Below are positions 7,198 through 22,000 of a stretch of DNA of 64,000 bases, one piece after another; the stretch's first letter is position 1, and each line of letters opens with the position of its first letter. Location: IMG/VR virus record IMGVR_UViG_3300025131_000013, positions 1-64,000 of that record. The stretch is one strand, 5' to 3'. The DNA comes from a virus. The position numbers and the translations under genes are program-made. The notes under the pieces were generated by a model. That model made no database searches. It saw only the letters and a list, made by a program, of their open reading frames with translations, and had not been told where the DNA came from.

Positions 7198-7218
7198 AAA
7201 TGAGGAGGTCAGGTCGCT

Positions 7219-7401: not shown

Positions 7402-7404
7402 CCG

Positions 7405-7433
7405 TAGGTTTTCAATTGGGGATTCGTTACCTT
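7405..7433 (+). promoter_or_regulatory. Conserved early promoter copy (TAGGTT-N17-TACCTT)
   Basis: Motif match. Confidence 0.75.
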
Positions 7434-7503
7434 TAAGTAGGTAGGGAAACGGCCCATAGAGGGCTAATCGGACAACCTAACTTACGCCCAAAGGAGGGCT
7501 AAG

Positions 7504-9319: not shown

Positions 9320-9378
9320 TTAGATAGCGGGAGGCTAACTGGCCTCTCGCTATCACTACATTTAAAGGAGGTGGTAGA

Positions 9379-9783
9379 ATGCCTGATGGAGAAGATAGAG
9401 TGCCGGTCCCAGGGGAGGAAGAAATACAAAGGCAGTTCCTTAAGGAGACTGGCCTGGCGAAAACGATTGCTAGATTCTCAACCCGAATCGCTGAAGGGGT
9501 GGCGGACGATCTACAAAAGAAGTTTGCGGCAATGTTCGCTACCTACAGATCTCAGACGGCTACAGAGATCCAGGAGATCATTGATGCGTTGAGGGAGGCC
9601 AAAGAGAATTTGGTCGATCCAGAGAATCTTGAGATAGATGCTGTTATCGACCAAGTGGTAAATCTCAGAGCCGGTCTGCTGGAGCTTCAAGAAGGGGTGG
9701 ACGATGGGACGGGCGTTTGGTCTCACGAGGTGCGATCGGAGGTAGTAAGGAAGATCGTGACCGCTATCGCAAGCGAATGCTAG
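9379..9783 (+). CDS. Hypothetical protein
   Basis: AAGGAGG SD; helical composition. Confidence 0.65.
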   Translation: MPDGEDRVPVPGEEEIQRQFLKETGLAKTIARFSTRIAEGVADDLQKKFAAMFATYRSQTATEIQEIIDALREAKENLVDPENLEIDAVIDQVVNLRAGLLELQEGVDDGTGVWSHEVRSEVVRKIVTAIASEC

Positions 9784-9790
9784 GGCCGAA

Positions 9791-9852
9791 TGCAGGCCGA
9801 ACAAGGGGCGGGGCGGGTCCGGAACCTACCCGATACCGCTCAGCCCTGCTAC
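9791..9852 (+). repeat. Intergenic structured element, copy 1 (homolog at 13607..13665)
   Basis: TGCAGG(C/T)CG ... GGGGCGGGTCCG(G)AACC ... CCTGCTAC is shared by both copies. Confidence 0.5.
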
Positions 9853-9878
9853 ACCGCTTAGACAAAGCGAGGTAAACT

Positions 9879-10292
9879 ATGATCGGTAGGTGGCTAGGCT
9901 ACGTTCATGATCGGGTCGTTGGACGAGAGATTCGGATAAGTGACAGCCATAAATATAGGAGACAAAAGTGGATGATTGATCATCCGATGGGCGACCAGTC
10001 AAGAGAGAGAAATGTGATTGGTGATCCTGTGATAATGGGGAAAGATCCAAACTTCTTCCTGGTAATTGGCGGACTGGTGCTAGGCTTTATGTTCGCAAGG
10101 GGAGAGGTGGAAGCTACTATCTGGATAATCTTTCTAGCTGTGTGCGTTACTGCCCCGTTGATGATGGTAGGGAAGTGGGCCTCAAACAGGGAGTTGGAGA
10201 AGAAGGCTGAGAAGGATGAGGAGAAGTTTGCTGGTGGAGTTAAGGCTGTAGAGCCTAACACGGGAGACTTGGATGATCTTGTTGACCTATAG
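9879..10292 (+). CDS. Membrane protein (2 TM)
   Basis: Two hydrophobic stretches; start uncertain. Confidence 0.55.
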   Translation: MIGRWLGYVHDRVVGREIRISDSHKYRRQKWMIDHPMGDQSRERNVIGDPVIMGKDPNFFLVIGGLVLGFMFARGEVEATIWIIFLAVCVTAPLMMVGKWASNRELEKKAEKDEEKFAGGVKAVEPNTGDLDDLVDL

Positions 10293-10299
10293 ATTCCAC

Positions 10300-10328
10300 T
10301 AGGACGCCAGTTGTCGATTCGCTACCTT
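10300..10328 (+). promoter_or_regulatory. Conserved early promoter copy (TAGGAC-N17-TACCTT)
   Basis: Motif match. Confidence 0.8.
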
Positions 10329-10372
10329 TAAGTAACGAGGGAAAGGCTGGAACCGGAAGGAGGTGATACGAT

Positions 10373-10540
10373 ATGGCGAAGGAAAGTTTTGTGAACGACA
10401 AGAGAACGAAAGTCCAGTTCTACGACAGCGAGCTTAAAGCATTCAGGGACGGGACGAAGTGGGAGTTGGCGAAGTTCTACGCTCTTGAGTTCTACCGTAT
10501 GAAGTTGGCGATTAAGTATTCTTGGCTACCTTGGAGGTAG
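10373..10540 (+). CDS. 55-aa hypothetical protein (below the ORF-track cutoff)
   Basis: AAGGAGGT SD; MAKESFVNDK...WLPWR. Confidence 0.65.
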   Translation: MAKESFVNDKRTKVQFYDSELKAFRDGTKWELAKFYALEFYRMKLAIKYSWLPWR

Positions 10541-10545
10541 GGAAG

Positions 10546-10797
10546 ATGATTACCGAGCGCAAGATATATATACTTGAATCGGAGATCCCCAATAGTTGCT
10601 GGTTGCGGGAGATCGAGATGACGATAGGGCACGCTGGACTACACGCGATCCAGTTCATGCGCGATATGAATCTCTTTGGGATCAGGGGCGCAATTAGTTA
10701 CGTGAAAAGATACGAGGCAGAGGGTCACTTTGAAGAAGGGACGACTGCCGAATTGGAGCGAATCGCGACTGAGCTAGAAGGTCATCTCAGTCAATAA
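10546..10797 (+). CDS. Hypothetical protein
   Basis: GGAGG SD before the ATG at 10546. Confidence 0.6.
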   Translation: MITERKIYILESEIPNSCWLREIEMTIGHAGLHAIQFMRDMNLFGIRGAISYVKRYEAEGHFEEGTTAELERIATELEGHLSQ

Positions 10798-10810
10798 GGA
10801 GGAAACGCAA

Positions 10811-11113
10811 ATGCCTGATTCACGGAAACTCGCTGGCTCGCTCAAGTATGTGAGCAAGGCCAAGATTACAATGCAGAATGGGTTTGATTTCCCATTCGAC
10901 ATGCTCCGATACGATCATTGTCATCCCGCATCCAGTGAGGATGCGACAGCTATATGGACATTAGTGACTGAGACGATCTTCGGTCGTGGTGAGAACGATA
11001 TGATTGAGGTCACCCTCGTCAAGTATCACGAGACTAAGGACAATCCTGGTTGGACGCCTGGGCGTTGGCAGTCCTTTGGTGCGCAGCTGGAGATTGTTGA
11101 TGCCTACTCCTAA
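10811..11113 (+). CDS. Phage hypothetical protein (FPFDMLRYD motif)
   Basis: AAGGAGG SD. Confidence 0.7.
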   Translation: MPDSRKLAGSLKYVSKAKITMQNGFDFPFDMLRYDHCHPASSEDATAIWTLVTETIFGRGENDMIEVTLVKYHETKDNPGWTPGRWQSFGAQLEIVDAYS

Positions 11114-11306
11114 CGACAAAATCGAAGTGAAGGACATACCTCGCTTGAGTAAGGTGAGGGAGTTCAACGGAGGCCCGATCAAGGGCCTTGTGAAGGGTGA
11201 GTCAAAAGACTGGCCTGGACGATGGTATGTGGAGATCAGCATAGAGGATATGGTCCACACCTGGTGCCTCTGGGAAGATGAGTTCACGGTTGTTGATGGG
11301 GAGTAA
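11100..11306 (+). CDS. Small beta-rich hypothetical protein
   Basis: In-frame ATG at 11100 within ORF 11004..11306. Confidence 0.55.
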   Translation: MPTPNDKIEVKDIPRLSKVREFNGGPIKGLVKGESKDWPGRWYVEISIEDMVHTWCLWEDEFTVVDGE

Positions 11307-11314
11307 CTTTCCAA

Positions 11315-11343
11315 TAGGTTCCAGGTTGTCGATTCGCTACCTT
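11315..11343 (+). promoter_or_regulatory. Conserved early promoter copy (TAGGTT-N17-TACCTT)
   Basis: Motif match. Confidence 0.8.
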
Positions 11344-11386
11344 ATAATAAGGACGAGAGACTTGGACCGGAGGGAGGTGATACGAA

Positions 11387-11602
11387 ATGGTCGTAACGAT
11401 TGATAAGGAACGCCGAGCCAAAGGTGAGAAGCTATTCAACGAAGGATGGCGGATCGCCAGAACCTTCCGAGTCCCGAAGCAGGGACGCCATAAGGGGTGG
11501 GTTAAACTTAAGAAGCACGGAGCGGGTGGTATGCTCCAGATCCCGCCTGAAACCGCTGAGCGAATCAAGGAGCTTGAAGAAGATGAAGGTTCTGATTCTT
11601 GA
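11387..11602 (+). CDS. Hypothetical protein
   Basis: GGAGGT SD after a promoter copy. Confidence 0.65.
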   Translation: MVVTIDKERRAKGEKLFNEGWRIARTFRVPKQGRHKGWVKLKKHGAGGMLQIPPETAERIKELEEDEGSDS

Positions 11603-11954
11603 CGATAACATCGACGTAGCCTTGTCAGTCTCTCAGATGACTAAGGCTTGTCTTCCTGAAGCGGAGATCCTGGTGTTCTACGATTCGCTTGAGGCGTTAC
11701 GGAAGATGACCGGCGATATTGATATCTTTATCACCGACTTCGATATGCCGGGGTTGGACGGAGTAGCGATGGCGGTCAACGCTAAGACGATGAATAAGAA
11801 AACAGCGGTTGTGATGATTAGCGGATTGCCTCAGACAGAGATCGAGGATACTCCTCGACGGACAGAAGATTTTAGGTCAAGCGTCGATTGGTTTATTGCT
11901 AAGCCGGTCAACTTGGCGGACCTTCAACGGACGATTGGAGAGATAGTCGAGTGA
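11583..11954 (+). CDS. Stand-alone response regulator receiver (CheY-like)
   Basis: MKVLILDD, FITDFDMPGLDG (phospho-Asp), MISG, FIAKP. Confidence 0.85.
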   Translation: MKVLILDDNIDVALSVSQMTKACLPEAEILVFYDSLEALRKMTGDIDIFITDFDMPGLDGVAMAVNAKTMNKKTAVVMISGLPQTEIEDTPRRTEDFRSSVDWFIAKPVNLADLQRTIGEIVE

Positions 11955-12073
11955 ACTACTACCAGCGAAAGAAGCGTGAGAAGCAGCTCATCGCTCTCGC
12001 CTTGTTCCTGTTCGTCTGTCTCTATATAGGATCGGAGCTATTCATCCACTACTACCTGGGACCGGAGCCATGA
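11951..12073 (+). CDS. 40-aa membrane peptide
   Basis: GTG overlapping the upstream stop; basic N-terminus plus one TM. Confidence 0.45.
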   Translation: MNYYQRKKREKQLIALALFLFVCLYIGSELFIHYYLGPEP

Positions 12074-12297
12074 TGGACCTTAATAAGGCTACTGGGGCCA
12101 TAGCCCGTGGGCTATTTGATGCCGGCTGGAGGACTTCGATAATGTCCTGCCACGACAAGGATAACCCGATGGAGATATTTAGAGAGGTGGATGGCGAGGG
12201 TGAAGTAGATCATTGTAGTAACCTTGGGGTATACCGCGCTCTCGATGAGATGAGCGAACATGCGAGGGATGAGGAAAATGGAACCTTGGAACGATAA
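12070..12297 (+). CDS. Hypothetical protein
   Basis: ORF track; ATGA coupling with the upstream gene. Confidence 0.55.
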   Translation: MMDLNKATGAIARGLFDAGWRTSIMSCHDKDNPMEIFREVDGEGEVDHCSNLGVYRALDEMSEHARDEENGTLER

Positions 12298-12640
12298 TCG
12301 TTGGTCTGACTGTCCGGATCTCACCGAGCGTGAGGCGTATGAAGAGTTGATGGAAGAAGAAGTGAGTGACGAGGATTGGGAGGAAGAATTTGAAAGGAGG
12401 AAGGTCAAAGAGGAGGATGAGGGACGAATTGCCCCGCCTGTGGGAGCTACCCTTGTTGACGATAACTTCGGGACATACCACGATACGGATGACCCGGATG
12501 TAGTTGAGTTCTACGCCCAAGTTCAGAGGGAGAGTGTCCCGACTGAATGCCAGGGGTGTGGCCGCACTTTTAATTTGCGGCCGGGATACGGCTTCTGTAA
12601 CTCGTGCGCTGATAAGCGAGAGAGAGGAATGGACTTTTGA
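12278..12640 (+). CDS. Acidic protein with C-terminal Zn finger
   Basis: CQGC...CNSC. Confidence 0.65.
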   Translation: MEPWNDNRWSDCPDLTEREAYEELMEEEVSDEDWEEEFERRKVKEEDEGRIAPPVGATLVDDNFGTYHDTDDPDVVEFYAQVQRESVPTECQGCGRTFNLRPGYGFCNSCADKRERGMDF

Positions 12641-13020
12641 GGGCGAGATCGGAGTTCACCCAGGGCTTCGTCGGTGCCGGCGATGAGACGTTCAATTTTA
12701 TCGCTAAGTGCTGGAACGTAAGCCACGCAAGGGCGATCCTTGCGGAAGAACCTAGAGATGGCGGGCAGTATCCTCTGGTTAACGTCAGACCTTTCATCGG
12801 AGCAATCCGAGATGAGGGAAAGGAGGCGATTGAGACCGCAGACTTGGATGAGCCAATCCTTCTGGTTGCGGTCCCGTTTGAAGAGGAAGGGGATAAAGGC
12901 CACTACTTGTTCCCCATCGACGGTTGGCATCGAATCAAGAAAGCGATCGGGTTGGGACTGAAGGAGATTCCAGGCGTAGCACTAACTCTTGAGGAAAGTG
13001 AGGAGGCCACACTCTTATGA
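12637..13020 (+). CDS. ParB/Srx-like domain protein
   Basis: DLDEPILL...IDGWHRIKKA. Confidence 0.7.
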   Translation: MRARSEFTQGFVGAGDETFNFIAKCWNVSHARAILAEEPRDGGQYPLVNVRPFIGAIRDEGKEAIETADLDEPILLVAVPFEEEGDKGHYLFPIDGWHRIKKAIGLGLKEIPGVALTLEESEEATLL

Positions 13021-13343
13021 GTCTCGGATATGATCCTGAGTTACCGAATGGATTCCAAGACGCCGACTTTGAGATGAGGGAAATGGAAGCTCAAGGTCGG
13101 GAGCACAGACGGAAGGTGAACCGCTCTCAAGCCCTTCGGGATGAGGGAAAGTGGGATGAAGCGGCTGAGGCTTGCCCGCATAGCGGAGGGTATAGTAGTC
13201 CTTCCAAAGCGGCTGAGCGGGCGGATGATCCTCGGAAGGATGAGAAGGGGTTCCGCTGTGGGACCTGCGGATCGTTCCTCTCAGGAGATCCGTGGGAGGA
13301 TTACACTATCATTGCAGCTTGTGAGATAGAACCTTACATCTAG
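13017..13343 (+). CDS. Zn-ribbon hypothetical protein
   Basis: CPH...RCGTCG. Confidence 0.6.
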   Translation: MSLGYDPELPNGFQDADFEMREMEAQGREHRRKVNRSQALRDEGKWDEAAEACPHSGGYSSPSKAAERADDPRKDEKGFRCGTCGSFLSGDPWEDYTIIAACEIEPYI

Positions 13344-13352
13344 GAGGAAGGT

Positions 13353-13595
13353 GTGTCTAAGACCAGTAGTATCTTGAGGCAGAAGGAGCTTCAGTCCCAG
13401 AAGCACGACTCAGAAATAGCCTCTTGTATCTCTGTGCTACACGACGCAGTGCTGGCAAGACTGGCTATCGACCCAGACCATCTTAAGCGAGTGATGGTTG
13501 ACTTTACTCGATGTGATGATCACTCGGACGCAGTGATGTCCGTAGACTATATGCGGATGGAAGTGGCGGAATTCACTGAGAATTACGTAATATAA
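13353..13595 (+). CDS. Hypothetical protein
   Basis: AGGAGG SD; GTG start. Confidence 0.6.
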   Translation: MSKTSSILRQKELQSQKHDSEIASCISVLHDAVLARLAIDPDHLKRVMVDFTRCDDHSDAVMSVDYMRMEVAEFTENYVI

Positions 13596-13606
13596 TGCCG
13601 GCGTGT

Positions 13607-13665
13607 TGCAGGTCGTTTGTTTCGGGGCGGGTCCGAACCCGTAGAGTTACTGTTCGGCCTGCTAC
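13607..13665 (+). repeat. Intergenic structured element, copy 2 (homolog at 9791..9852)
   Basis: GCAGGTCG/CGGCCTGC closing stem around GGGGCGGGTCCGAACC. Confidence 0.5.
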
Positions 13666-13726
13666 GGGGCTGCATTCGAGCTGGAATAACCGCATCATAA
13701 GGGTCGAAAGGCCGAAGGAGCGAGGA

Positions 13727-13945
13727 ATGCCGATCAAGATGAAGAAGATCAAGTCGAGCAATATTCAGTCAGCGGGTTACGATGGGAAGAAGCACGTCAT
13801 GGTGATTAACTTTGGCGGTCCGGACTACCACTACGCCGATGTGCCGGTTGAAGTCTATACCAGTTTCTGTTCCGCAGATTCCAAAGGGAAGTTCTTCCAT
13901 ACGGAGATCAGAGACAAGTTTGAGCATGAGAAGCAGGAGGACTAA
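13727..13945 (+). CDS. KTSC domain protein
   Basis: SSNIQSAGYD...YHYADVP.EVY..F..ADSKGKFFH.EIR. Confidence 0.85.
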   Translation: MPIKMKKIKSSNIQSAGYDGKKHVMVINFGGPDYHYADVPVEVYTSFCSADSKGKFFHTEIRDKFEHEKQED

Positions 13946-13953
13946 ACCAGTCA

Positions 13954-14175
13954 ATGGTGCTTAATCGCAACTGGAAGGAAATGATGATGGAAGCTACAGA
14001 AGCCCAGATGAAAGCAATCCAGATCCTTTTGAAGCGCAACGAGAAGTTGATACTGTGGCGCCCAACGACGATGGACGCTCTGCCTGAGGGGTATATTGCG
14101 GGTGCCTACTGTATTAAGTTTGGTGATGATCCCAGGGCATGCGGGATTGATCCGGATGGCTCGGTGTCGTCATGA
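13954..14175 (+). CDS. Hypothetical protein
   Basis: ORF track. Confidence 0.55.
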   Translation: MVLNRNWKEMMMEATEAQMKAIQILLKRNEKLILWRPTTMDALPEGYIAGAYCIKFGDDPRACGIDPDGSVSS

Positions 14176-14206
14176 CCCTCTATTTGGCCCAAAATCTTAC
14201 TTAAGA

Positions 14207-14425
14207 ATGAAGGAGGAAGTGGTGACTGAAGAGACGCTCCTATATGCGGCTAAAGAAGTGAAGCCGATAGCTCCTGAGATTGCAAGGAGATTGAAGAAGT
14301 TGGGATGGGGAGTATTCGCTGATACTGTGATAGCGAAAGATGGGGACGACAACAACTCTGCCGCGATAGTTCGGGATATTGATCCTTCGGTTATAGCTGA
14401 GATGAAAGGAGAAGGTGATGGCTGA
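14207..14425 (+). CDS. Hypothetical protein
   Basis: 3' part of ORF 14096..14425; start uncertain. Confidence 0.55.
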   Translation: MKEEVVTEETLLYAAKEVKPIAPEIARRLKKLGWGVFADTVIAKDGDDNNSAAIVRDIDPSVIAEMKGEGDG

Positions 14426-14618
14426 GGGACCGTTTTTAGTGATTGAGGATATAGACTTGCCCTTCCCAGAGAGTCTAGGGATGCAGGTGCAGGTGACGCA
14501 AGCCTATCGGCTGACCGAGCTATTTGATCGAGTCGAAGCGGGTGAGGTAATTACGGTGTTGGTTGGTAGGACCGCAATTGGTTCTAAGACGCTAACCCTT
14601 TCACTGAAAGATAAGTAA
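14415..14618 (+). CDS. Hypothetical protein
   Basis: AAGGAG SD. Confidence 0.55.
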   Translation: MMAEGPFLVIEDIDLPFPESLGMQVQVTQAYRLTELFDRVEAGEVITVLVGRTAIGSKTLTLSLKDK

Positions 14619-14640
14619 GATGATGAGGTAAAGAAATCAA

Positions 14641-14669
14641 TAGGACGCCAGGTGCGGATTCGTTAATTT
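14641..14669 (+). promoter_or_regulatory. Conserved early promoter copy (TAGGAC-N17-TAATTT)
   Basis: Motif match. Confidence 0.8.
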
Positions 14670-14718
14670 TAAATAGGCCGGAGAAACCGGCAGAGAACCC
14701 GAACTGGGAGAAGAGAAG

Positions 14719-15042
14719 ATGGGAAACTACGGCGTTCAAGAAACTAACCCGATCACTAAAGGCTTCCACAACGAGAAGCCAGAGGGATCGGTTTGTTGGA
14801 CGGACCCGAGGCTTGAGAGTATCGAACGTCTCAGGCTACTTTCGGATCCAGGATTCCCGATGTGGGACGTAAGCTATTGTACGGGCAGGTTAAAGGACGG
14901 CACAAAAGTTGATGTCGAACTTCCGTTCGATCAGCTTCGGAAGCGCAGGAAGATCAACGCGCAGATAGTCGCTTACGCCAAGAAGGACGGTGTCTACGCC
15001 AAGCGGCTCGGAATCTTCAGCGCGATCTCGACGCTCAACTAG
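14719..15042 (+). CDS. Phage hypothetical protein
   Basis: RLRLLSDPGFPMWDVSYC; first gene after a promoter copy. Confidence 0.7.
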   Translation: MGNYGVQETNPITKGFHNEKPEGSVCWTDPRLESIERLRLLSDPGFPMWDVSYCTGRLKDGTKVDVELPFDQLRKRRKINAQIVAYAKKDGVYAKRLGIFSAISTLN

Positions 15043-15047
15043 GGGGA

Positions 15048-15263
15048 GTGATGAAAGAGAACAAGGTATTCGCAGTCATATCGTATGATGGCTACCTCGG
15101 TTGTAACTTCACTCGTTACGCCAACGGGGCCGCGACAGGTTGTCGGGACTTTCCCGATGGAGAAATCACCCTCGCAACTCTCGACCGAATCAGAGATGCG
15201 ATCGCAGAGCATCTCGGACTCATCGAAGGTTCCGGTCACTACAAAGAGAGTGTTGATGGATAA
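15048..15263 (+). CDS. Hypothetical protein
   Basis: ORF track. Confidence 0.55.
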   Translation: MMKENKVFAVISYDGYLGCNFTRYANGAATGCRDFPDGEITLATLDRIRDAIAEHLGLIEGSGHYKESVDG

Positions 15264-15585
15264 GATCAAGCTAGCAGGGGATTCGATCTGGTGGAATCGG
15301 AAGGATTTTGATGGGAGAGAGATAAGCGAGCAGGCAGGCAAGCCCTACCCGAAGGAAGCAGAAGTCGGTGATATGGAAGAGGAAGATAATGATCTTGGCC
15401 TCCCGAGCACGATCATAACGGTCTACCATAACCTTCCTTGGGAAATTTACACCGATACAGGATTCGCCGAGGGAGTCAAAAGACTCTGGAAGGAGAGGAC
15501 TGGTGAGGATCACGATATAGATTGGACGGAGCAGGGCATGCAGAACGACTCGGTAGCAACCTTCGATATGTTGGCCAAGCAGTAA
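15256..15585 (+). CDS. Hypothetical protein
   Basis: WEIYTDTGF...WTEQGMQ; in-frame ATG at 15256. Confidence 0.65.
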   Translation: MDKIKLAGDSIWWNRKDFDGREISEQAGKPYPKEAEVGDMEEEDNDLGLPSTIITVYHNLPWEIYTDTGFAEGVKRLWKERTGEDHDIDWTEQGMQNDSVATFDMLAKQ

Positions 15586-15594
15586 AGAAACCAA

Positions 15595-15623
15595 TAGGAA
15601 CTCAGGTGGGGATTCGTTACCTT
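15595..15623 (+). promoter_or_regulatory. Conserved early promoter copy (TAGGAA-N17-TACCTT)
   Basis: Motif match. Confidence 0.8.
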
Positions 15624-15672
15624 TAAGTAGGTCGAGAGCCGACTGGGACGGACTAACTGAGAAGGAGAAAAG

Positions 15673-15927
15673 ATGAGAGACAGGTTCGATGATATCGTAG
15701 ACGCCGATATGGCGGGCGACTCAGCGAAATCTGAACTCCTGAGGGAGTTGGATCGCTTGATGATAGACCCCGATGATTGCTCTCCGGACGTTTGCCCAGG
15801 TTGCGGAGGCGAACTGAAAGAGGGAGGCGGGTATGTTGGTGAGACGGTAGTTTACTGCGACGCTGACGGTTGTAAGGTCGGAATCGTCTGGGAAGATTCG
15901 GCTGCGGCTATCGCCGCTGTCTTTTAG
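15673..15927 (+). CDS. Zn-ribbon hypothetical protein
   Basis: CPGCGG...YC....C. Confidence 0.65.
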   Translation: MRDRFDDIVDADMAGDSAKSELLRELDRLMIDPDDCSPDVCPGCGGELKEGGGYVGETVVYCDADGCKVGIVWEDSAAAIAAVF

Positions 15928-15933
15928 GAGGGA

Positions 15934-16683
15934 GTGATGACGGAGAGAGCGAAGAAACTGCTGGCGGGGCGTAGTCTGCCCCGCTTTGTAGAGGAATTTG
16001 CTACCTCGGCTGAGCCGATAGACGGGCACCAGGGTGGCGGCGTTCCCTACTTGAACTTCTTGGCCGACCGTATTTGGAAGTTGGCCGAGAGGATGAATGG
16101 CGATAACCCCTCTGGATATCGAATATCAAAGTATGCTGAGGGAGTAAATCTTGAACATCAGCCAGATACGATTGAGGAAGCTACCCGGACAGTCCTGACT
16201 GATGAGGAGATGTATTCGGTTCCGTTTGAAGCCGGGGATGGACGAGGTGAAAAGAGTATCCTGGCTGCGAGACTCTACTCTTGGATGGCAGCCAGATACT
16301 ATGAGGAGTGTGAATCGAAGGAAGATCACAACCTGGAAAAGATCCCGCTGGATATCGAAGTTGACGTAGGCGGTGAAGTATTCCTCGCTGTTACGCTGAA
16401 GTATGGGGATAAGTCATTCTCCTTTGAACTAGACGAGTGGTTCGCTGGCTTTAGCTATAATGGATCTCTTGATCCTAATGGCGAAACGATTGATTCGTAT
16501 GATCGTTTTTGGTCCGACTACGCTGTAAGGCCGAAGGTTGATTCGCTAAAGAAGATGAGCGGAGAAGATGTTCTTAAGGCCGGATACAGCGAAGGATGGC
16601 TGAAAGAAGGAGTAGATGAATACGTGGCTATTCCTAATCCTGGAGTAGCTGGAGGCGTAACTATTGTTTCTTTGGAGGCTTAG
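15934..16683 (+). CDS. Hypothetical protein
   Basis: 249-aa ORF with SD. Confidence 0.7.
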   Translation: MMTERAKKLLAGRSLPRFVEEFATSAEPIDGHQGGGVPYLNFLADRIWKLAERMNGDNPSGYRISKYAEGVNLEHQPDTIEEATRTVLTDEEMYSVPFEAGDGRGEKSILAARLYSWMAARYYEECESKEDHNLEKIPLDIEVDVGGEVFLAVTLKYGDKSFSFELDEWFAGFSYNGSLDPNGETIDSYDRFWSDYAVRPKVDSLKKMSGEDVLKAGYSEGWLKEGVDEYVAIPNPGVAGGVTIVSLEA

Positions 16684-17319
16684 ATGGAACGAGTCGATGT
16701 GGAAGCGAAAGACTTCAAGCATCTGCTGGCCGCCTTCCTAGAGGGCCAGATGGAGGACCACGCGCCCGGTGTTTGGGTTGATATCGAAGGGAAGATTGAT
16801 ATTGTCCCGGCGGGGGAATCGTGGATGAGCGTTCGGTTGGACTTCGGTGATACGCCCTTTCTGTTCGAGATTGATACGTCCAAAGAAGATATCCAGATGT
16901 TCGAGGAACGGAAGGATGAGTTAGCTGAGGTAGTCCAAGCGAGGGCGTTGCTACGGGACGGTTGGCGCGCCGACGATTCCGCTGCTAAACCGGAATACTG
17001 CACTCATTCGATCTTTGACCCTAAAGGTGGCGCCTCGTGTGTGATCCCTCCGGGAGTATTTGACGAGATGGTGAAGATCCAGAATCGGGATGAGGATACC
17101 CCGAATGGCTGTATTGTCTCGGAGTCGGGTGTGAAAGTAGTTCCGGTTGTCGAGGCGACCGTAGTTGCCGCCCAGAAGCTCTATGACGAGGGATACCGCA
17201 ACTACCCAGCGAGGGAAGGCTTCTGGATCTACAGGACGGATGAGAACCAGAACGACGATGCCCAAGAAATAAGCCAGGCTACCTGGAGCGCGCTACTTGC
17301 TCTGGAGGATCGACACTAG
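16684..17319 (+). CDS. Hypothetical protein
   Basis: 211-aa ORF with SD. Confidence 0.7.
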   Translation: MERVDVEAKDFKHLLAAFLEGQMEDHAPGVWVDIEGKIDIVPAGESWMSVRLDFGDTPFLFEIDTSKEDIQMFEERKDELAEVVQARALLRDGWRADDSAAKPEYCTHSIFDPKGGASCVIPPGVFDEMVKIQNRDEDTPNGCIVSESGVKVVPVVEATVVAAQKLYDEGYRNYPAREGFWIYRTDENQNDDAQEISQATWSALLALEDRH

Positions 17320-17364
17320 AAGGTGAGGGTGAGTAGAGATTCCAATAATCAGAAAGGAGAAGTA

Positions 17365-17757
17365 ATGAACTGGGAACTTAACCGTAAACTGGAGAGGATA
17401 GCAGTGTATGCCGTCCTTAAGATGCTCTCGGATGATGAATGGAAGCCTTACCGCGTAGATGATGGGTGCGAAGATATCGGTATAAACAGGGTGACCGATA
17501 TCCACGAGGCATATCGCGCTGTGATGGCGGTAGACGAATCGTATGTCAACCTCAAGAAGGTAACTGCTGGTGTCCCTCCTAAGACTACGATTGGTTGGGT
17601 GCGGTTCGTTATGGGTAACGACCCGGACGAGGTGGTGTGCGACTATACTACCTCAATTGAGACTCTCGACCATGTTGACGTAAAGGATCTGATTGACGAG
17701 CAGCTCGACCGTATTCTGGATGAATATTTATACGAATACTTACACAACGTAGCTTAA
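17365..17757 (+). CDS. Hypothetical protein
   Basis: GWVRFVMGND..EVVCDY; AAGGAG SD. Confidence 0.7.
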   Translation: MNWELNRKLERIAVYAVLKMLSDDEWKPYRVDDGCEDIGINRVTDIHEAYRAVMAVDESYVNLKKVTAGVPPKTTIGWVRFVMGNDPDEVVCDYTTSIETLDHVDVKDLIDEQLDRILDEYLYEYLHNVA

Positions 17758-18124
17758 GGGGGTTTTGATGCAGGCAATTCTCAGTGGTACCAATGGCTAA
17801 AAACATCTTTTCCCGTAGGGAGGAAACATAGCAACCAATGGGCAAAAAGAAATTCGGGATGAGAAATGATGGGAAGGAAAGAAAGGTCAGCCCTAAAGAA
17901 TGTGAGGTATGCTGAGGGAGGTGTAGGACTAAGGTGGATGACGTATACTTAATGCTATGTAGCGTATATCGTCCTATATGTAGGAGTGCGTCTATGGCGT
18001 AGGGTTACGGACTATGACTGGATGTGGTATGATGACGACTGTAATATGATCTGCCTAGTCTTTACTGCTGTAGTTATGCTCGTGGGGTGGTTAGGACTAG
18101 AGTGCCTTATGTTCCTCTCCCACT

Positions 18125-18199
18125 CTCCCCGCTGAATCCTCTCATTATCAATCTAGCTCCCCGCTGAATCCTCTCATTATCAATCTAGCTCCCCGCTGA
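18125..18199. repeat. Perfect 32-bp tandem repeat (2.3 copies)
   Basis: CTCCCCGCTGAATCCTCTCATTATCAATCTAG twice, then CTCCCCGCTGA. Confidence 0.95.
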
Positions 18200-18229
18200 T
18201 GTGAGACACCGCTCGACTTCCCTCCTGGC

Positions 18230-18478
18230 ACTCAGTCACACACCCACACTGGGTTGATTGGATGATTGGCACGATGCCCAGCTGGCTGTGTTTTCAGTCA
18301 ACCGGCAGTAATCACAATTGACGTGCCTTATCAGCACCAAACCGCACCAAACAGGACTGGCCATTCAGTCAACCAGGCAAGTTTGGGTTGCTGAATGGTG
18401 AATTTAACCATCCAGTCAACCATGCAAGTCTGGGTTGTTGAATGTTGAATGGTGGATGCTGCTGGTTGTTGGTTGGGT
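18230..18478. repeat. CA/TG-rich block 1 with CAGTCAAC motifs and an imperfect 47-bp tandem duplication
   Basis: CAGTCAAC at 18295, 18366 and 18413; the last two start near-identical units. Confidence 0.8.
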
Positions 18479-18491
18479 CCGGCCCGGATGT

Positions 18492-18530
18492 GGAAAGGGG
18501 GTCGACCTTGGAGCTGGCCGACCCCCTTCC
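18492..18530 (-). terminator. Hairpin at the 3' end of the minus-strand gene
   Basis: GGAA(A)GGGGGTCG/CGACCCCCTTCC. Confidence 0.55.
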
Positions 18531-18532
18531 TG

Positions 18533-18862
18533 CTAGTTCTGCTTCTTCTCCCGTGGCTTACCGGGAGCTACCGCCACATAGTTCCCGTTCTCCAATCGGG
18601 TAACTACCACCCGCCTCTTCGCACGGACGACGAAATTGGCGTAGAATAGCGGGTTGGCGATACCCGCCTCGGTCAGCTTTTCGAGCCAATCGACCTTACT
18701 GATTCCCGTTTTTCCCGCGTCCTGGAGAATCTGCCAGGCTCGGTTGCGACCCTCGCTGCGCTTAAACGGTGATCGCGCGTTGTGGTACGGGAGTGCGGAA
18801 CTGCCGAGACTCTCAGCGAGACTCGGAACGACCTGCGGCTGCTTCTTACTCTGGGTGCCCAT
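18533..18862 (-). CDS. Putative winged-helix nucleoid-like protein, minimal form (paralog C)
   Basis: RNRAWQILQDAGKTGISKVDW...RRVVV...GNYVAVAP; GAGGAG SD before MGTQ. Confidence 0.8.
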   Translation of the reverse strand: MGTQSKKQPQVVPSLAESLGSSALPYHNARSPFKRSEGRNRAWQILQDAGKTGISKVDWLEKLTEAGIANPLFYANFVVRAKRRVVVTRLENGNYVAVAPGKPREKKQN

Positions 18863-18910
18863 ATCGGACTCCTCATTTTTAGGTCTGAGGCCTATCCCCG
18901 ACCTGCATTT

Positions 18911-18939
18911 AATATAACGGATTCGCACTGAGATTCCTA
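18911..18939 (-). promoter_or_regulatory. Conserved early promoter copy (TAGGAA-N17-TATATT), minus strand
   Basis: Reverse complement matches the motif; upstream of paralog C. Confidence 0.75.
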
Positions 18940-18972
18940 ATGAAATCTTCGCTTTCAGCGAAAAAAGTTTCG

Positions 18973-19157
18973 CTGGATGATGCCCGATATATCAGAGATT
19001 TCAGTCAACGGGTGGCGTGGGCTGTGGTGTGCGGTGTTGTTGTATAGGGATTTCAGTCAACGCCGGGCGCTGATGTTGCGCGCGGTGTTGTATAGGCATC
19101 AAGCTGCACCAACGCGCCCCGGACATATGCTTGATGGTGGCTGATGGTGGCTGGTGG
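18973..19157. repeat. CA/TG-rich block 2 between two divergent promoters
   Basis: GATTTCAGTCAACG at ~18997 and ~19049, GCGGTGTTG..TATAGG twice, TGATGGTGGC repeats. Confidence 0.75.
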
Positions 19158-19179
19158 AAAAAAAAAGTTTCTGTTGGGC

Positions 19180-19208
19180 TAGGATTCCAGTTGTCGATTC
19201 GCTATCTT
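19180..19208 (+). promoter_or_regulatory. Conserved early promoter copy (TAGGAT-N17-TATCTT)
   Basis: Motif match with an upstream A-tract. Confidence 0.8.
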
Positions 19209-19251
19209 TAAATAGGTAGAGAATCCGCTCTACCTAAACGAAGGGAACGAG

Positions 19252-19458
19252 ATGGATATCCCTATTCTTAGGGGGATCGTAAAGTCCAGCGTATTAGAGC
19301 TAGACGGTTGCGTTAACGAATACGGAGTAGAGGTTGATGTATGCTCCGGAGGCGGCCCCAACGCGGGAGGCGTTACGATCCAGCTTCGGATTCCAGATCG
19401 AGACGAAATCTCGATTAGACTTCAGAACGACGGAATCTTCACGGTAGTCGAACTCTAA
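19252..19458 (+). CDS. Small early protein
   Basis: Follows a promoter copy; followed by a UUCG hairpin. Confidence 0.65.
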   Translation: MDIPILRGIVKSSVLELDGCVNEYGVEVDVCSGGGPNAGGVTIQLRIPDRDEISIRLQNDGIFTVVEL

Positions 19459-19465
19459 CCTCAAC

Positions 19466-19487
19466 GGGCGGGACTTCGGTCCCGCCC
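19466..19487 (+). other. GC-rich cUUCGg hairpin
   Basis: GGGCGGGAC-TTCG-GTCCCGCCC. Confidence 0.7.
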
Positions 19488-19505
19488 AACGAAAGCGAGG
19501 GCGAT

Positions 19506-19760
19506 ATGGTGGATGGAGTAAAGGAAATGTTCGAGGGACTTTGCGGGTTTCTAAACGAGGTTACTGAAGGATGGTTCCTTGATATTAATCCTGTGTCGCC
19601 GATAACCGGGACTGTGACCCTTATCCCGAACGGAGAGGGATGGGTTGAGATGGTGATTTCAGTCGAAGGTAAGGAGTTTTCGGTGAAGGTGGACGCCTAC
19701 GGAAAGACCGGATGTGAGTATGGAGATCCTTCCCCCGAACGTAATTGCTTTGGAGGATAG
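19506..19760 (+). CDS. Small early protein
   Basis: GAGG SD; ORF track. Confidence 0.6.
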   Translation: MVDGVKEMFEGLCGFLNEVTEGWFLDINPVSPITGTVTLIPNGEGWVEMVISVEGKEFSVKVDAYGKTGCEYGDPSPERNCFGG

Positions 19761-19770: not shown

Positions 19771-19948
19771 AACGATCCGTTGACTGGGATATTACTTATT
19801 CAGTCAACGGATCGTTGTTCGAGCTGGTAGGTATTGCTGGCTGCTGCTGGTTGCTGGTTGGCTTTCAGCCAGTCAGTCAGCTTCCAGTCAGTCAGCCAGT
19901 CAGCTTTCAGTCAGTCAGTCAGAAATCACAACCGGCATAGGGTAAGCA
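19771..19948. repeat. CA/TG-rich block 3: 16-bp inverted repeat, then (G/T)CTG and (CAGT)n tracts
   Basis: AACGATCCGTTGACTG (19771-86) / CAGTCAACGGATCGTT (19801-16); TG-rich 19824-19860 followed by CAGT repeats 19866-19921. Confidence 0.85.
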
Positions 19949-19966
19949 CGTTAGAAAAACTAAGTC

Positions 19967-20000
19967 CTACTACTTAGCCTTAAGCGATACTAAGTAGTAG
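19967..20000 (+). repeat. 34-bp palindromic site L (11-12-11)
   Basis: CTACTACTTAG-CCTTAAGCGATA-CTAAGTAGTAG. Confidence 0.85.
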
Positions 20001-20187
20001 TGGGAAAAATCTACCGGAAGAAAATTCTTAAGAAAAAGATTAGTTTCGCTTAAGGGAAAAATCTTCCTCTACGAAAATTATAAGACGTTCTACTACTTTT
20101 CCGCTTAAAGCGAAATCTATACCTAAAAGCGAAAAAAAGGCGAAAAAAGACGAGAAAATTTTTTTTACGAAAAGCGAAAAAAAACGC

Positions 20188-20216
20188 TAGACTCGACTAG
20201 TTTAATACCCTATACT
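20188..20216 (+). promoter_or_regulatory. sigma70-like promoter TAGACT-N17-TATACT free of CA/TG
   Basis: Near-consensus boxes, 17-nt spacer, upstream A-tracts. Confidence 0.7.
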
Positions 20217-20429
20217 TAGACCTACGAACCCTAACGAAAGGAAACGAAGAAAAGAGTAAAAAGAGTAGACTCTAGGCGAAGCGGGAACTTAGGCTTTCGC
20301 CCTTACTACCTAGAGTCCTACCGCCGGATTATCGGGATAACCCTTAAATATCCGGCTTAAAAGGTTCCTAGCTTACCGTAAAAAGCTAGACTCGATTTAT
20401 TTTTTTTTACTTCTCTTTAGGAGAAAAAA

Positions 20430-20978
20430 ATGTCTCTCGATATTACCCCCGTAGAGGCCGCCGTAGAGGTCCCCGTAGTCGGAGACTCTAAGGACGCCGG
20501 GATATACGCCTATAACCTTTTCGAAGTCGCCCGGATCGCCGTAGCGCGGCGTCCTAAAGACGCGAAAAAGGTTAAGGTAGGAACCGAAGATCGAGGCGGT
20601 TATACTAGTCCCGATCGATACGCGTCCTTCCGGCTCGCGTTTTCCCTCTCTCTAACGAATTCCGAAGCTAAACGGGTAGCTATCGTAGCGCGCTTCTCCG
20701 AGACGTTAAAGATTCGGAAACGGATCGTAGACGCCGGAATTCCCGTAGGGAAGGGTTATACCTATAAGGAACTCGCGTCTACCGCCGCCGCTCTACGCTA
20801 CGGCGAAAAGTACTCCGGGTTCGTAGCGTTTCGACCTAACGGTACTCGATTCGCCGTAGCGGAAAAAAACGAGCGTTTCTTTCTTTACGTAGTAAACGCG
20901 AACGGAGAGGTTTTCCCTAACCTTCCCGAATCGCTTAAGGTTAAGGAGGTCGAGGGGGAGCTAATAAAGGTAGAGTAA
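20430..20978 (+). CDS. 182-aa protein encoded without CA/TG dinucleotides (no Cys, His, Gln, Trp or internal Met)
   Basis: AGGAG SD, own promoter and terminator; composition is visible in the translation. Confidence 0.85.
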   Translation: MSLDITPVEAAVEVPVVGDSKDAGIYAYNLFEVARIAVARRPKDAKKVKVGTEDRGGYTSPDRYASFRLAFSLSLTNSEAKRVAIVARFSETLKIRKRIVDAGIPVGKGYTYKELASTAAALRYGEKYSGFVAFRPNGTRFAVAEKNERFFLYVVNANGEVFPNLPESLKVKEVEGELIKVE

Positions 20979-20987
20979 TAAATTCGA

Positions 20988-21021
20988 CTCCCGGTCCTAA
21001 CGGACCGGGGGTTTTTTTTTT
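20988..21021 (+). terminator. Intrinsic terminator
   Basis: CCCGGTCC-TAAC-GGACCGGG followed by T10. Confidence 0.9.
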
Positions 21022-21046
21022 AGCCTATAGGGAAGTTCCTTCCCTT

Positions 21047-21080
21047 CGACTACTTAGTATCGCTTAAGGTTAAGTAGAAC
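21047..21080 (-). repeat. 34-bp site R, inverted copy of site L
   Basis: CGACTACTTAG-TATCGCTTAAGG-TTAAGTAGAAC is 30/34 identical to the reverse complement of 19967..20000. Confidence 0.85.
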
Positions 21081-21290
21081 TAAGCAGAACGGGGTAGGGG
21101 TTAAACGCTAATTTCTTAGCTTTTAACGTCTCAATTGGTCTGCTTACATACACGTGCAATTTTTTGGTGAAATTTGCTTCAGGAGGGTGTTAGTGAGTAG
21201 CGAGGAATAAGAGGGCCACAGCACACCCAACGGTGACGATTACCGAACCTGGCGATTCAGCAATGATGGCGATTAGCGCGTTTAGGAGTT

Positions 21291-21548
21291 TCATAAGTCA
21301 ACATACTTTCCGATGCCAACTCTGCAAGGAGGCATCATAGGGTTGATTTTGAGCTCAAGCTGTTCGAACACTTCGTAGGCTTGAGCGTGGTTGGCCATGA
21401 GGAAGGAGACTATCTCAAGATCGGGGGTGATCTCTCTGAAGACCTCCTCAGATGGGGCCATAGCCTCAGTTGGCTTCTTACCGTGCTCCCGCATCTGTTC
21501 GATTAGGAGTATGAGTTTGTGGAGTGTAGCGCGGTTGTTTGGGGTCAT
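21291..21548 (-). CDS. Hypothetical protein
   Basis: Coupled (ATGA overlap) to 21545..22000. Confidence 0.6.
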   Translation of the reverse strand: MTPNNRATLHKLILLIEQMREHGKKPTEAMAPSEEVFREITPDLEIVSFLMANHAQAYEVFEQLELKINPMMPPCRVGIGKYVDL

Positions 21549-22000
21549 AGGTCTACCTTGCTGTCATCCTTTATAGCGAATAGTCCTGCTGGCTTTGGAT
21601 TTCTGAGTCGAGTGACTAACTGGACGCTATTGCCAGTGTAATAACCTCCCTGACTGATGTCGACAAATATATCTCTGTCTTCCTCATCAGTCCGGGTATG
21701 GAATCTTTTGTTTCTATTTGGGCGATGATAGTCAGGAGTGAGGCTTATCCTAAGTCCACCCTTCTCTTCGCCGGCATCCCCACTGGATGTATCTTCAATA
21801 CACCACTCTGAGCCATTGTTGAGAGTGATATAGAACTTTCGACGATTCTTGGCGAATCGCTTTTTCTTGTCCTCTTGAGGCGGCTTGATGCGTCTCCTCG
21901 GGGGATTCCGACTATTGTAATGTTCACGTCTGTTCTTTTCTTCAATGCTTTCTTTGCGGTCACCTCTAACCATATCCCAAATCTTCATCTTGTTCTCCAT
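21545..22000 (-). CDS. Basic hypothetical protein
   Basis: ORF track. Confidence 0.6.
   Translation of the reverse strand: MENKMKIWDMVRGDRKESIEEKNRREHYNSRNPPRRRIKPPQEDKKKRFAKNRRKFYITLNNGSEWCIEDTSSGDAGEEKGGLRISLTPDYHRPNRNKRFHTRTDEEDRDIFVDISQGGYYTGNSVQLVTRLRNPKPAGLFAIKDDSKVDL

What the first reader, a model, noticed from the sequence alone, without database searches (positions are those of the whole stretch)
20430..20978. Solitary 182-aa gene whose protein has given up Cys, His, Gln, Trp and internal Met
These are exactly the five amino acids whose codons all contain TG or CA. The stop is TAA and codon junctions also avoid the dinucleotide, so the DNA constraint has reshaped the protein. The gene has its own near-consensus promoter (TAGACT-N17-TATACT, itself CA/TG-free), SD and strong terminator. 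I recognise no family. Inference: it is the first-expressed gene and a candidate new anti-defence protein, de-modifying factor or activator of the other early promoters.
Basis: partly seen in the sequence, partly recalled or inferred. Interest (0 to 1): 0.88.

Follow-up and report, generated by a model that had tools for sequence, protein, structure and literature searches.

The report
Phage gene cassette lacking CA/TG
A marine phage keeps one self-contained early gene, with its promoter, leader and terminator, almost completely free of the DNA step CA/TG, at the cost of five amino acids and, in a relative, of the normal start codon; something still unidentified must therefore read that two-base step.

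Summary
The gene at 20430-20978 lies in a 1.19-kb tract (19947-21132) with 3 internal CA/TG where about 144 are expected. One of them is the ATG. No other dinucleotide pair has such a gap in the 93-kb phage genome.

Codon choice, codon junctions and non-coding DNA all obey the rule. A related phage (TerL 82% identical) has a 1597-bp tract with no CA/TG at all, so its copy of the gene has no ATG, GTG or TTG and probably starts at ATT. Distant homologs from marine metagenomes (30-40% identity) also lack, or nearly lack, Cys, His, Gln, Trp and internal Met.

The protein matches no named family. Its core models confidently, and the nearest solved folds are almost all winged-helix DNA-binding domains, but only weakly.

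Best reading: an early cassette with a host-type promoter, kept invisible to an agent that acts at CA/TG, encoding a DNA-binding regulator. The agent is unknown. The known TG-directed thymine hypermodification genes are absent here, and phage M6 and the first 50 kb of ViI, which use that pathway, show no such tract.

This scan has noted similar CA/TG-free early cassettes on other phage DNA. I found no published description.

The parts
19947..21132 (.). CA/TG-poor tract. Its core, 20002-21084, holds a single CA/TG, the TG of the start codon.
   Evidence: 3 internal CA/TG against about 144 expected; unique in the genome; sharp edges.
19970..20007 (.). Left arm of the inverted repeat that brackets the cassette. 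It is itself a small palindrome around a CCTTAAGCGA motif.
   Evidence: I1: 38 nt, 87% complementary to 21040-21077. The relative's tract is also bracketed by inverted repeats (I3/I4/I8).
21040..21077 (.). Right arm of the bracketing inverted repeat.
20151..20186 (+). A/T-rich tract with A and T runs directly upstream of the -35 box; UP-element-like (inference).
   Evidence: Read from the sequence.
20188..20216 (+). Sigma-70-type promoter TAGACT-N17-TATACT. The consensus -35 TTGACA is excluded by the CA/TG rule.
   Evidence: The position is kept in the relative, with a shared CTATAC -10 region.
20222..20429 (+). Leader of about 200 nt with predicted structure. It holds a second copy of the GCTAGACTCGA box (20385-20395) and the SD AGGAG (20419-20423).
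   Evidence: MFE -63 kcal/mol, z = -3.15; D6.
20430..20978 (+). Gene for a 182-aa protein. The core, residues about 55-165, models as helices plus a beta-hairpin (winged-helix-like). The N-terminal 53 residues are variable and poorly modelled.
20986..21023 (+). Intrinsic terminator: 12-bp stem with 8 GC pairs, then a T run.
20046..20055 (+). One of four copies of TCGCTTAAGG. The others are at 19978-19987 (- strand), 20931-20940 and 21060-21069. Candidate operator.
   Evidence: all four copies in the 93-kb genome lie in the tract, and the relative's tract has two exact copies plus further CTTAAG variants.
19865..19929 (.). CA/TG-rich CAGT array (TCAGTCAG-type repeats) abutting the left border. 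A CCAGTCAGTCA block also abuts the relative's tract.
   Evidence: (D2).
21146..21166 (.). Conserved block ACATACACG-N3-AATTTTTTG just outside the right border, shared with the relative. Its role is unknown.

Best explanation
This is an autonomous early-expression cassette. It consists of a host-type promoter with an A/T-rich upstream tract, a structured leader of about 200 nt, one gene and a strong terminator. It is bracketed by inverted repeats and holds four copies of a motif (TCGCTTAAGG) found nowhere else in the genome. Selection on the double-stranded DNA has removed the CA:TG base-pair step from the whole 1.1-1.2 kb, so that an agent which needs CA/TG cannot act there. The most likely agent is a mark that the phage places on its own DNA at CA/TG, which would otherwise hinder the unmodified host RNA polymerase on freshly injected DNA. 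The gene product is a winged-helix-like DNA-binding protein. I infer that it acts as an early regulator, binding the cassette's own TCGCTTAAGG sites and/or switching on the conserved CAGnTG...GATTCG promoter family that heads the neighbouring early genes. Shown: the void, its selection at the DNA level, its conservation, the anatomy of the cassette, and a real protein family. Inferred: early timing, DNA binding, the targets, and the identity of the CA/TG-reading agent.
For: The void exists and is unique. It covers non-coding DNA, codon choice and codon junctions. It is symmetric on the two strands, which points to duplex DNA rather than RNA or protein as the target. A relative (TerL 82% identical) has 1597 bp with zero CA/TG, so no ATG, GTG or TTG is possible there. 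Its ORF follows AAGGGGA-N6-ATT, which aligns with the window's SD and ATG. The two orthologs are 51% identical, so the rule has held through much divergence. Homologs P0005 and P0007 have none of the five residues, P0004 has 1 Gln and 1 Met, and P0012 has 2 Cys and 2 Met. Promoter and terminator. The core model has pLDDT 80 and pTM 0.77. Nearly all of the 50 nearest solved chains are winged-helix DNA-binding domains, such as Fur/Zur, PadR, MecI, IclR, the histone H1 globular domain, RPA32, and Z-alpha/Z-beta. Three homologs carry Lys/Ala-rich tails. The motif is confined to the tract in both phages. A distinct promoter family holding CA and TG heads the early genes. Published work shows that phage thymine hypermodification is aimed at TG (PMC6449724; PMC13458397), so phage enzymes that read this step do exist. 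The genome has unusual sugar and one-carbon genes among its early and replication genes: UDP-galactopyranose-mutase-like, glycosyltransferase and ThyX-like at 672-3948, and GT2, DUF5675 and methyltransferase at 71338-73605.
Against: No DNA mark has been shown for this phage. None of the known machinery was found: no HMUDK_hel, aGPT-Pplase3, ThyA-type, TGT/DpdA, C5 or N6/N4 methyltransferase, or Tet/JBP match. A tblastn with M6 gp51-54 and gp58 and with ViI gp67 and ThyA found nothing. Phage M6, which modifies T at TG, has no void in its whole genome, and ViI has none in its first 50 kb. A TG-directed mark therefore does not by itself call for a void. The fold matches are weak (Z at most 4.7; Foldseek found nothing at E <= 0.001). 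Early timing and DNA binding are untested. More distant TerL relatives show neither the void near TerL nor the gene.
Confidence: 0.4

Rival explanations
1. The agent is a nuclease, not a mark. The cassette is the first DNA in the cell, as in T5-type two-step entry. It must survive a nuclease that depends on CA/TG, either a phage-induced host-DNA degrader or a host defence, while its product prepares entry or expression of the rest of the genome.
For: It accounts for the same facts about the void. The cassette lies in about 4.5 kb of mostly non-coding, repeat-rich DNA next to the terminase genes, where genome ends often lie. No modification genes of known type were found. Phages with a known TG mark lack a void. 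A partial CA/TG depletion lies near the left end of the record of E. coli phage WFC. The genome encodes SbcCD-like nuclease subunits.
Against: No nuclease with two-base specificity is known. The rest of the genome has normal CA/TG content and would need another form of protection. Physical ends could not be mapped, and long contigs run straight through the region. The cassette protein has no invariant acidic residues and no resemblance to a nuclease.
Confidence: 0.25
2. The constraint acts on the RNA. The transcript avoids UG and CA to escape sequence-specific endoribonucleases, for example ACA-cutting MazF-type toxins, or to prevent internal initiation.
For: The mRNA has no internal AUG, GUG or UUG and no ACA.
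Against: CA and TG are removed equally, as expected for one duplex step read on both strands. The void extends 240 bp upstream of the promoter and about 70-120 bp past the terminator. In the relative it extends about 800 bp upstream of the gene. The dinucleotide UA, a common RNase target, is enriched.
Confidence: 0.07
3. The odd composition only reflects a foreign mobile cassette, bounded by inverted repeats, acquired from a donor with a different composition.
For: Inverted repeats bracket the tract in both phages. The gene and the void are absent from more distant TerL relatives, while protein homologs occur on unrelated metagenome contigs.
Against: No donor composition gives zero of one dinucleotide in 1.1-1.6 kb with normal base content (GC 0.45-0.48). 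The rule has been kept through 49% protein divergence at the same genomic position. Mobility may be true as well, but it does not explain the void.
Confidence: 0.03
4. The driver is the protein, which must lack Cys, His, Gln, Trp and Met. The DNA pattern is a by-product.
For: The five residues are absent.
Against: Synonymous codons containing CA/TG (GTG, GCA, TCA, ACA, CCA, CTG, TTG) are all unused. Codon junctions avoid the step (0 of 5000 permutations reach zero). About 600 bp of non-coding DNA obeys the rule as well.
Confidence: 0.01

Closest known systems
TG-directed thymidine hypermodification of phage DNA (5-hmdU pathway: M6, ViI, phiW-14, SH-Ab 15599)
   Same: It is the only described phage system that reads the TG (= CA) step. 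Restriction mapping places the modified T mainly at TG (PMC6449724; PMC13458397). A tract without TG on either strand would stay free of such a mark.
   Different: None of its enzymes is detectable here. M6 (whole genome) and ViI (first 50 kb) have no CA/TG-free tract. No modification is known for this phage.
First-entering early regions: the T5 first-step-transfer (pre-early) region and the T7 early region with gene 0.3 (my own knowledge of these systems)
   Same: A short block with host-type promoters, expressed before everything else, whose product prepares the cell for the rest of the genome. The idea that the leading DNA must avoid being recognised is the same.
   Different: Those regions avoid particular sites at most, not a whole dinucleotide, and their proteins keep all amino acids. 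Here the position at a physical end and the early timing are not shown. The product is basic, not an acidic DNA mimic like Ocr.
Restriction-site (palindrome) avoidance in phage genomes
   Same: A short DNA word is counter-selected.
   Different: The tract keeps many palindromic sites that lack CA/TG, such as CTTAAG (five copies), GAATTC, GATC, CCGG, GCGC and TCGA. The avoided word is a two-base step, which costs five amino acids and the -35 consensus.
Near-cognate start codons (AUU of E. coli infC; my own knowledge)
   Same: The relative's ortholog can only start at a non-ATG/GTG/TTG codon. An ATT lies 6 nt after AAGGGGA.
   Different: Here the unusual start is forced by a DNA rule rather than used for autoregulation. 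Use of ATT is inferred, not shown.
Winged-helix DNA-binding domains (Fur/PadR/MecI-type regulators; linker histone H1 globular domain)
   Same: The core model has the helix-helix-helix plus beta-hairpin layout. The nearest solved chains are almost all winged helices. Some homologs add Lys/Ala-rich tails like H1.
   Different: There is no sequence match to any winged-helix family. Z is at most 4.7. Extra helices lie between the first helix and the putative recognition unit.
CA/TG-free early cassettes noted earlier in this scan on other phage DNA (AI notes: soil phages, E. coli Wifcevirus and others)
   Same: The same void, the same loss of five amino acids, occasional loss of canonical start codons, and an early or terminal position. 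I confirmed a partial depletion in phage WFC at 1.6-3.6 kb of the record.
   Different: Those cassettes carry other genes. This one is marine, holds a single winged-helix-like gene, and its void is total rather than partial.

Membership tests
TG-directed thymidine hypermodification system (5-hmdU pathway) | dUMP hydroxymethylase of the ThyA family | tested here: not met
   No PF00303 match in the whole genome, while the controls match. A tblastn with the M6 gp58 and ViI ThyA-like proteins gave only noise. A ThyX-like protein is present instead, and its chemistry is unknown.
TG-directed thymidine hypermodification system (5-hmdU pathway) | 5-hmdU DNA kinase (5-HMUDK) | tested here: not met
   No PF18723 match. 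A tblastn with M6 gp54 and ViI gp67 gave E >= 0.3.
TG-directed thymidine hypermodification system (5-hmdU pathway) | aGPT-Pplase (amino-acid:DNA transferase) | tested here: not met
   No PF18746 (clade 3) match. A tblastn with M6 gp51 (clade 2) gave E >= 0.36. Clade 1 was not tested.
TG-directed thymidine hypermodification system (5-hmdU pathway) | Modified thymine present at TG in virion DNA | not testable with these tools
   This needs native-DNA sequencing or mass spectrometry. Only assembled contigs were served.
Winged-helix DNA-binding proteins | Three-helix bundle followed by a beta-hairpin wing | tested here: inconclusive
   The core model has pLDDT 80 and pTM 0.77, with helices followed by two strands. 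The nearest solved chains are nearly all winged helices, but Z is 3.5-4.7. Foldseek found nothing at E <= 0.001.
Winged-helix DNA-binding proteins | Sequence match to a described family | tested here: not met
   No hit in Pfam, PHROGs or NCBIfam, and none with a profile against PDB sequences.
T5-type first-step-transfer (pre-early) region | Lies at the physical end that enters first | not testable with these tools
   The record is linear by assembly and breaks inside an acidic repeat. Only contigs could be laid, and some of them run through the region.
T5-type first-step-transfer (pre-early) region | Host-type promoters that need no phage factor | tested here: met
   TAGACT-N17-TATACT matches 9 of 12 consensus positions and has an A/T-rich upstream tract. 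This is a consensus match only.
T5-type first-step-transfer (pre-early) region | Homologs of the pre-early proteins A1, A2 or Dmp | tested here: not met
   The only protein of the cassette matches no PHROG or Pfam family.
DNA-mimic anti-restriction proteins (Ocr/ArdA type) | Strongly acidic surface that mimics DNA | tested here: not met
   There are 29 Lys+Arg against 23 Asp+Glu, and homologs have basic tails. Only the relative's N-terminal repeat is acidic.
Restriction-site avoidance | Loss of specific 4-6-bp palindromes as such | tested here: not met
   Palindromes without CA/TG are kept (CTTAAG x5, GAATTC, GATC, CCGG, GCGC, TCGA). Only the CA/TG step is missing.

The most novel reading that the evidence does not exclude
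This phage and its kin coat their DNA with a mark of a so far unknown kind, aimed at the CA:TG step. It may be sugar-based and made by the early UDP-galactofuranose, glycosyltransferase and ThyX-like module and the GT2, DUF5675 and methyltransferase module. The CA/TG-free cassette would then be the only bare DNA in the virion. It encodes a linker-histone-like winged-helix protein that licenses the host polymerase to read marked DNA from the CAGnTG...GATTCG promoters. Together with the similar cassettes seen elsewhere in this scan, this would define a general, undescribed strategy for phage early genes.
Probability: 0.15. Interest if true: 0.92.

Novelty: new variant of a known kind. Interest (0 to 1): 0.8.

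Why it matters
Removing one dinucleotide from more than a kilobase costs five amino acids, the best -35 box, every canonical start codon (in the relative) and one stop codon. Such a cost implies a strong and long-lasting selective agent that reads only two base pairs. No such agent is described for this phage, and I found no paper describing the pattern. Identifying the agent could reveal a new DNA modification or nuclease. It could also show how phages get their first gene expressed from chemically disguised DNA, and it would give a simple sequence signature for finding first-expressed genes in uncultured phages. The protein family is new as well: a small DNA-binding-like protein built from 15 amino acids.

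Tried and rejected
- Pfam, PHROGs and NCBIfam scans of the protein and its neighbours found nothing.
- A profile search against PDB sequences found nothing.
- Foldseek against PDB and BFVD with both models found nothing at E <= 0.001.
- The ESM Atlas gave only sub-threshold leads.
- The beta-propeller (PD40/NHL) hits of the representative search were rejected as repeat-amplified matches to one short motif.
- The hhalign comparison with the neighbouring 131-aa protein (18533-18928) aligned only a 15-column SPF-RS-RN motif at probability 10%. Paralogy is not shown.
- The homodimer prediction gave no verdict.
- Phage database searches with the tract and its protein gave no match.
- More distant TerL relatives (25-41% identity; 18 loci) have no void within 10 kb of TerL. 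The one dip, in L019, is an Asp/Glu-rich coding repeat. The gene is also absent from the four more distant relatives' records that were searched in full.
- Rfam and tRNA scans of the region found nothing relevant.
- No RNA holder was listed among the sequencing runs.
- Laying contigs gave no read starts or ends, so neither genome termini nor depth could be judged.
- Six natural transitions inside the tract create no CA/TG, but the chance of that is 0.06, so the test is too weak to count.
- Literature searches for the pattern (TpG/CpA and early genes; Wifcevirus) found no description.

Full report
**Source and observation.** The window is bases 1-64000 of a 93,475-bp viral record that CheckV rates complete. 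Near-identical DNA occurs in many marine metagenome runs from 2017-2024. In large genes of this genome these five residues make up 10.0% of residues, so their absence from 181 positions has a chance of 5e-9.

**The constraint acts on the DNA.**
- The gene has one CA/TG, in its ATG. The same protein encoded with the genome's codon usage would carry 54 on average (minimum 36 in 2000 trials).
- If the gene's own CA/TG-free codons are kept but permuted among synonymous positions, 27.6 CA/TG appear at codon junctions on average. None of 5000 permutations reaches zero.
- The void is not confined to the gene. It runs from 19947 to 21132, with 3 internal CA/TG against 144 expected (log10 P about -57). 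From 20002 to 21084 the start codon holds the only one.
- It is unique in the genome. No other complementary dinucleotide pair has a gap longer than 218 bp, against 654 bp for CA/TG.
- Base composition inside the tract is ordinary (GC 0.45). CG, TA, AA and TT are enriched.
- CA and TG are lost equally, and DNA upstream of the predicted promoter and past the terminator obeys the rule. The target is therefore the duplex CA:TG step, not the RNA or the protein.

**Anatomy of the cassette.**
- A 38-nt inverted repeat (19970-20007 and 21040-21077, 87% complementary) brackets the tract.
- Reading left to right: an A/T-rich tract (20151-20186), a sigma-70-type promoter TAGACT-N17-TATACT (20188-20216), a leader of about 200 nt that folds better than shuffled controls (z = -3.15), the SD AGGAG, the gene, and a terminator with a 12-bp stem.
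- The consensus -35 box TTGACA cannot be written without TG and CA.
- The 10-mer TCGCTTAAGG occurs four times in the genome, and all four copies lie inside the tract. GCTAGACT occurs twice on the + strand, both copies in the tract, with one further copy on the - strand at 53881.
- Because the + strand lacks both TG and CA, neither strand can offer another canonical start codon.
- Outside the left border lies a CA/TG-rich CAGT array. Outside the right border lies a conserved block ACATACACG-N3-AATTTTTTG.

**A related phage.** A TerL search of viral contigs found one close relative (L006; TerL 82% identical) and several distant ones.
- L006 holds 1597 bp with no CA or TG at all (log10 P about -84), in the same position upstream of the terminase genes.
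- Inside is the ortholog, 51% identical over 148 residues. It lies in a 225-codon open frame with no ATG, GTG or TTG.
- The frame is preceded by AAGGGGA-N6-ATT, which aligns with the window's SD and ATG. An ATT start is the likely reading, though it is inferred and not shown. The stop is TAG.
- That tract is also bracketed by inverted repeats. It carries two exact TCGCTTAAGG copies with several CTTAAG variants, and two GCTAGACT boxes.
- The rule and the architecture have therefore persisted while the protein diverged by half.

**The protein family.**
- An exhaustive HMMER search found four true homologs from metagenomes (164-258 aa, 30-40% identical over the core), besides spurious repeat-protein hits.
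- P0005 and P0007 have none of the five residues. P0004 has one Gln and one Met. P0012, from Tara Oceans, has two Cys and two Met. By chance each would have 16-26 such residues.
- I could not obtain their DNA.
- The protein matches no Pfam, PHROG, NCBIfam or PDB sequence family.
- A model of the conserved core (residues 54-167, six-sequence alignment) has mean pLDDT 80 and pTM 0.77. It shows five helices followed by a beta-hairpin.
- Foldseek finds nothing significant. In the exhaustive structural comparison, nearly all of the 50 best chains are winged-helix domains (Fur/Zur/Nur, PadR, MecI, IclR, RPA32, ORC2, cullin WH-B, histone H1, Z-alpha/Z-beta), but Z is only 3.5-4.7.
- The invariant residues are Arg, Tyr, Ser, Gly and Phe, with no acidic ones. 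The protein is net basic. Three homologs have Lys/Ala-rich N-terminal tails.
- I read it as a DNA-binding protein of winged-helix type, at roughly 60% confidence. It does not look like an enzyme or a DNA mimic.

**What reads CA/TG?**
- The only described phage system aimed at this step is thymidine hypermodification through 5-hmdU. It is concentrated at TG in M6, ViI, phiW-14 and SH-Ab 15599 (PMC6449724; PMC13458397).
- I tested whether this phage has that system. It has no ThyA-type hydroxymethylase, no 5-HMUDK and no aGPT-Pplase, by Pfam model or by tblastn with the M6 and ViI enzymes.
- It also has no TGT/DpdA, C5 or N6/N4 DNA methyltransferase, or Tet/JBP.
- I also tested the converse. M6 has no CA/TG-poor tract anywhere (minimum 19 per 300 bp against a mean of 35). 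The first 50 kb of ViI has none either. A TG-directed mark does not by itself produce a void.
- What the genome does have, among its early and replication genes, is a UDP-galactopyranose-mutase-like protein (E 3e-19 to solved mutases), a glycosyltransferase and a ThyX-like protein at 672-3948. It also has GT2, DUF5675 and a class-I methyltransferase between the DnaB-like helicase and the Pol III alpha genes. These could make an undescribed DNA mark, but that is conjecture.

**Context.**
- The early genes at 5365-19500 are headed by a conserved motif of about 35 bp, TAGG-N4/5-CA-NN-TG-NN-GATTCG-N-TA-NN-TT. I confirmed it at 5365, 7405, 10300, 14641, 15595 and 19180, with variants at 5849, 11315 and 18939.
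- That motif is unlike the cassette's promoter and contains both CA and TG. This fits a two-stage programme in which the cassette's product acts on those promoters. Nothing here tests that.
- More distant TerL relatives lack both the void near TerL and the gene. The cassette may therefore move between phages.
- Earlier notes of this scan report similar CA/TG-free early cassettes in soil phages and in E. coli Wifcevirus. I checked one: phage WFC shows a partial depletion (4-11 per 200 bp against about 28) at 1.6-3.6 kb of its record.
- I found no published description of the pattern.

**Verdict.**
The DNA constraint, the autonomy of the unit and the lack of a named family hold.
- Of the proposed roles, regulator fits best. 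Timing and function remain untested.
- My best explanation, at confidence 0.4, is an early cassette kept invisible to a CA/TG-directed agent, most likely a phage DNA mark, that encodes a winged-helix-like regulator.
- The main rival, at 0.25, is protection from a CA/TG-dependent nuclease during stepwise entry.
- Explanations based on RNA, on the protein's own needs, or on foreign origin are largely excluded by the symmetry, the junction statistics and the non-coding extent of the void.

Noticed in passing
window 5365, 7405, 10300, 14641, 15595, 19180 (+); variants at 5849, 11315 (+) and 18939 (-): A conserved motif of about 35 bp, TAGG-N4/5-CA-NN-TG-NN-GATTCG-N-TA-NN-TT, heads runs of small early genes. 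It looks like a phage-specific promoter class, distinct from the cassette's host-type promoter.
   Followed up: partly
window 18201-18500 and 19865-19929: Non-coding blocks with CA/TG at 1.7 times expectation (CAGTCAAC and TCAGTCAG repeats) lie beside the void. They could be pac, ori or protein-loading sites.
   Followed up: partly
window 19251-19550: The small two-gene unit just left of the cassette has only half the expected CA/TG (O/E 0.48). This is a partial version of the same trend.
   Followed up: no
window 672-3948: An early cluster holds a UDP-galactopyranose-mutase-like protein (E 3e-19 to solved mutases), a CgeB-type glycosyltransferase-like protein, and a long ThyX-like protein with an N-terminal extension of about 110 aa. 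It is a possible nucleotide or DNA sugar-modification module.
   Followed up: partly
G000 71338-73605 (L004:7338-9605): GT2 glycosyltransferase, DUF5675 and a class-I SAM methyltransferase sit between the DnaB-like helicase and DNA polymerase III alpha genes.
   Followed up: no
window 21146-21166; L006 about 4866-4886: The block ACATACACG-N3-AATTTTTTG is conserved just outside the right border of the void in both phages. Its function is unknown.
   Followed up: no
window 21136: Contigs from two independent marine runs (X9, X13) both stop exactly at 21136, and neither run covers the next 470-940 bp, while two other runs bridge the place. This may be strain variation in the minus-strand gene block or a physical end.
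   Followed up: no
window 18533-18928 (-); L006:1965-2321 (+): A conserved 131-aa protein shares only a short SPF-RS-RN-aromatic motif with the cassette protein family (hhalign probability 10%). It is a possible distant paralog, and it is inverted between the two phages.
   Followed up: partly
window 21291-22000 (-) versus L006:5081-9305 (-): The minus-strand gene block between the cassette and the terminase genes differs in size and content between the two phages (2 against about 13 small genes). This is a variable region.
   Followed up: no
G000 1-200 and 93276-93475: The record begins and ends inside GAT/GAC/GAA/GAG repeats that encode an Asp/Glu-rich protein. The assembly break is therefore a repeat artefact and not a genome end.
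   Followed up: no
L014 (Escherichia phage vB_EcoM_WFC, MK373777) 1600-3600: A partial CA/TG depletion (4-11 per 200 bp against about 28) covers small genes of unknown function near the left end of the record.
   Followed up: partly
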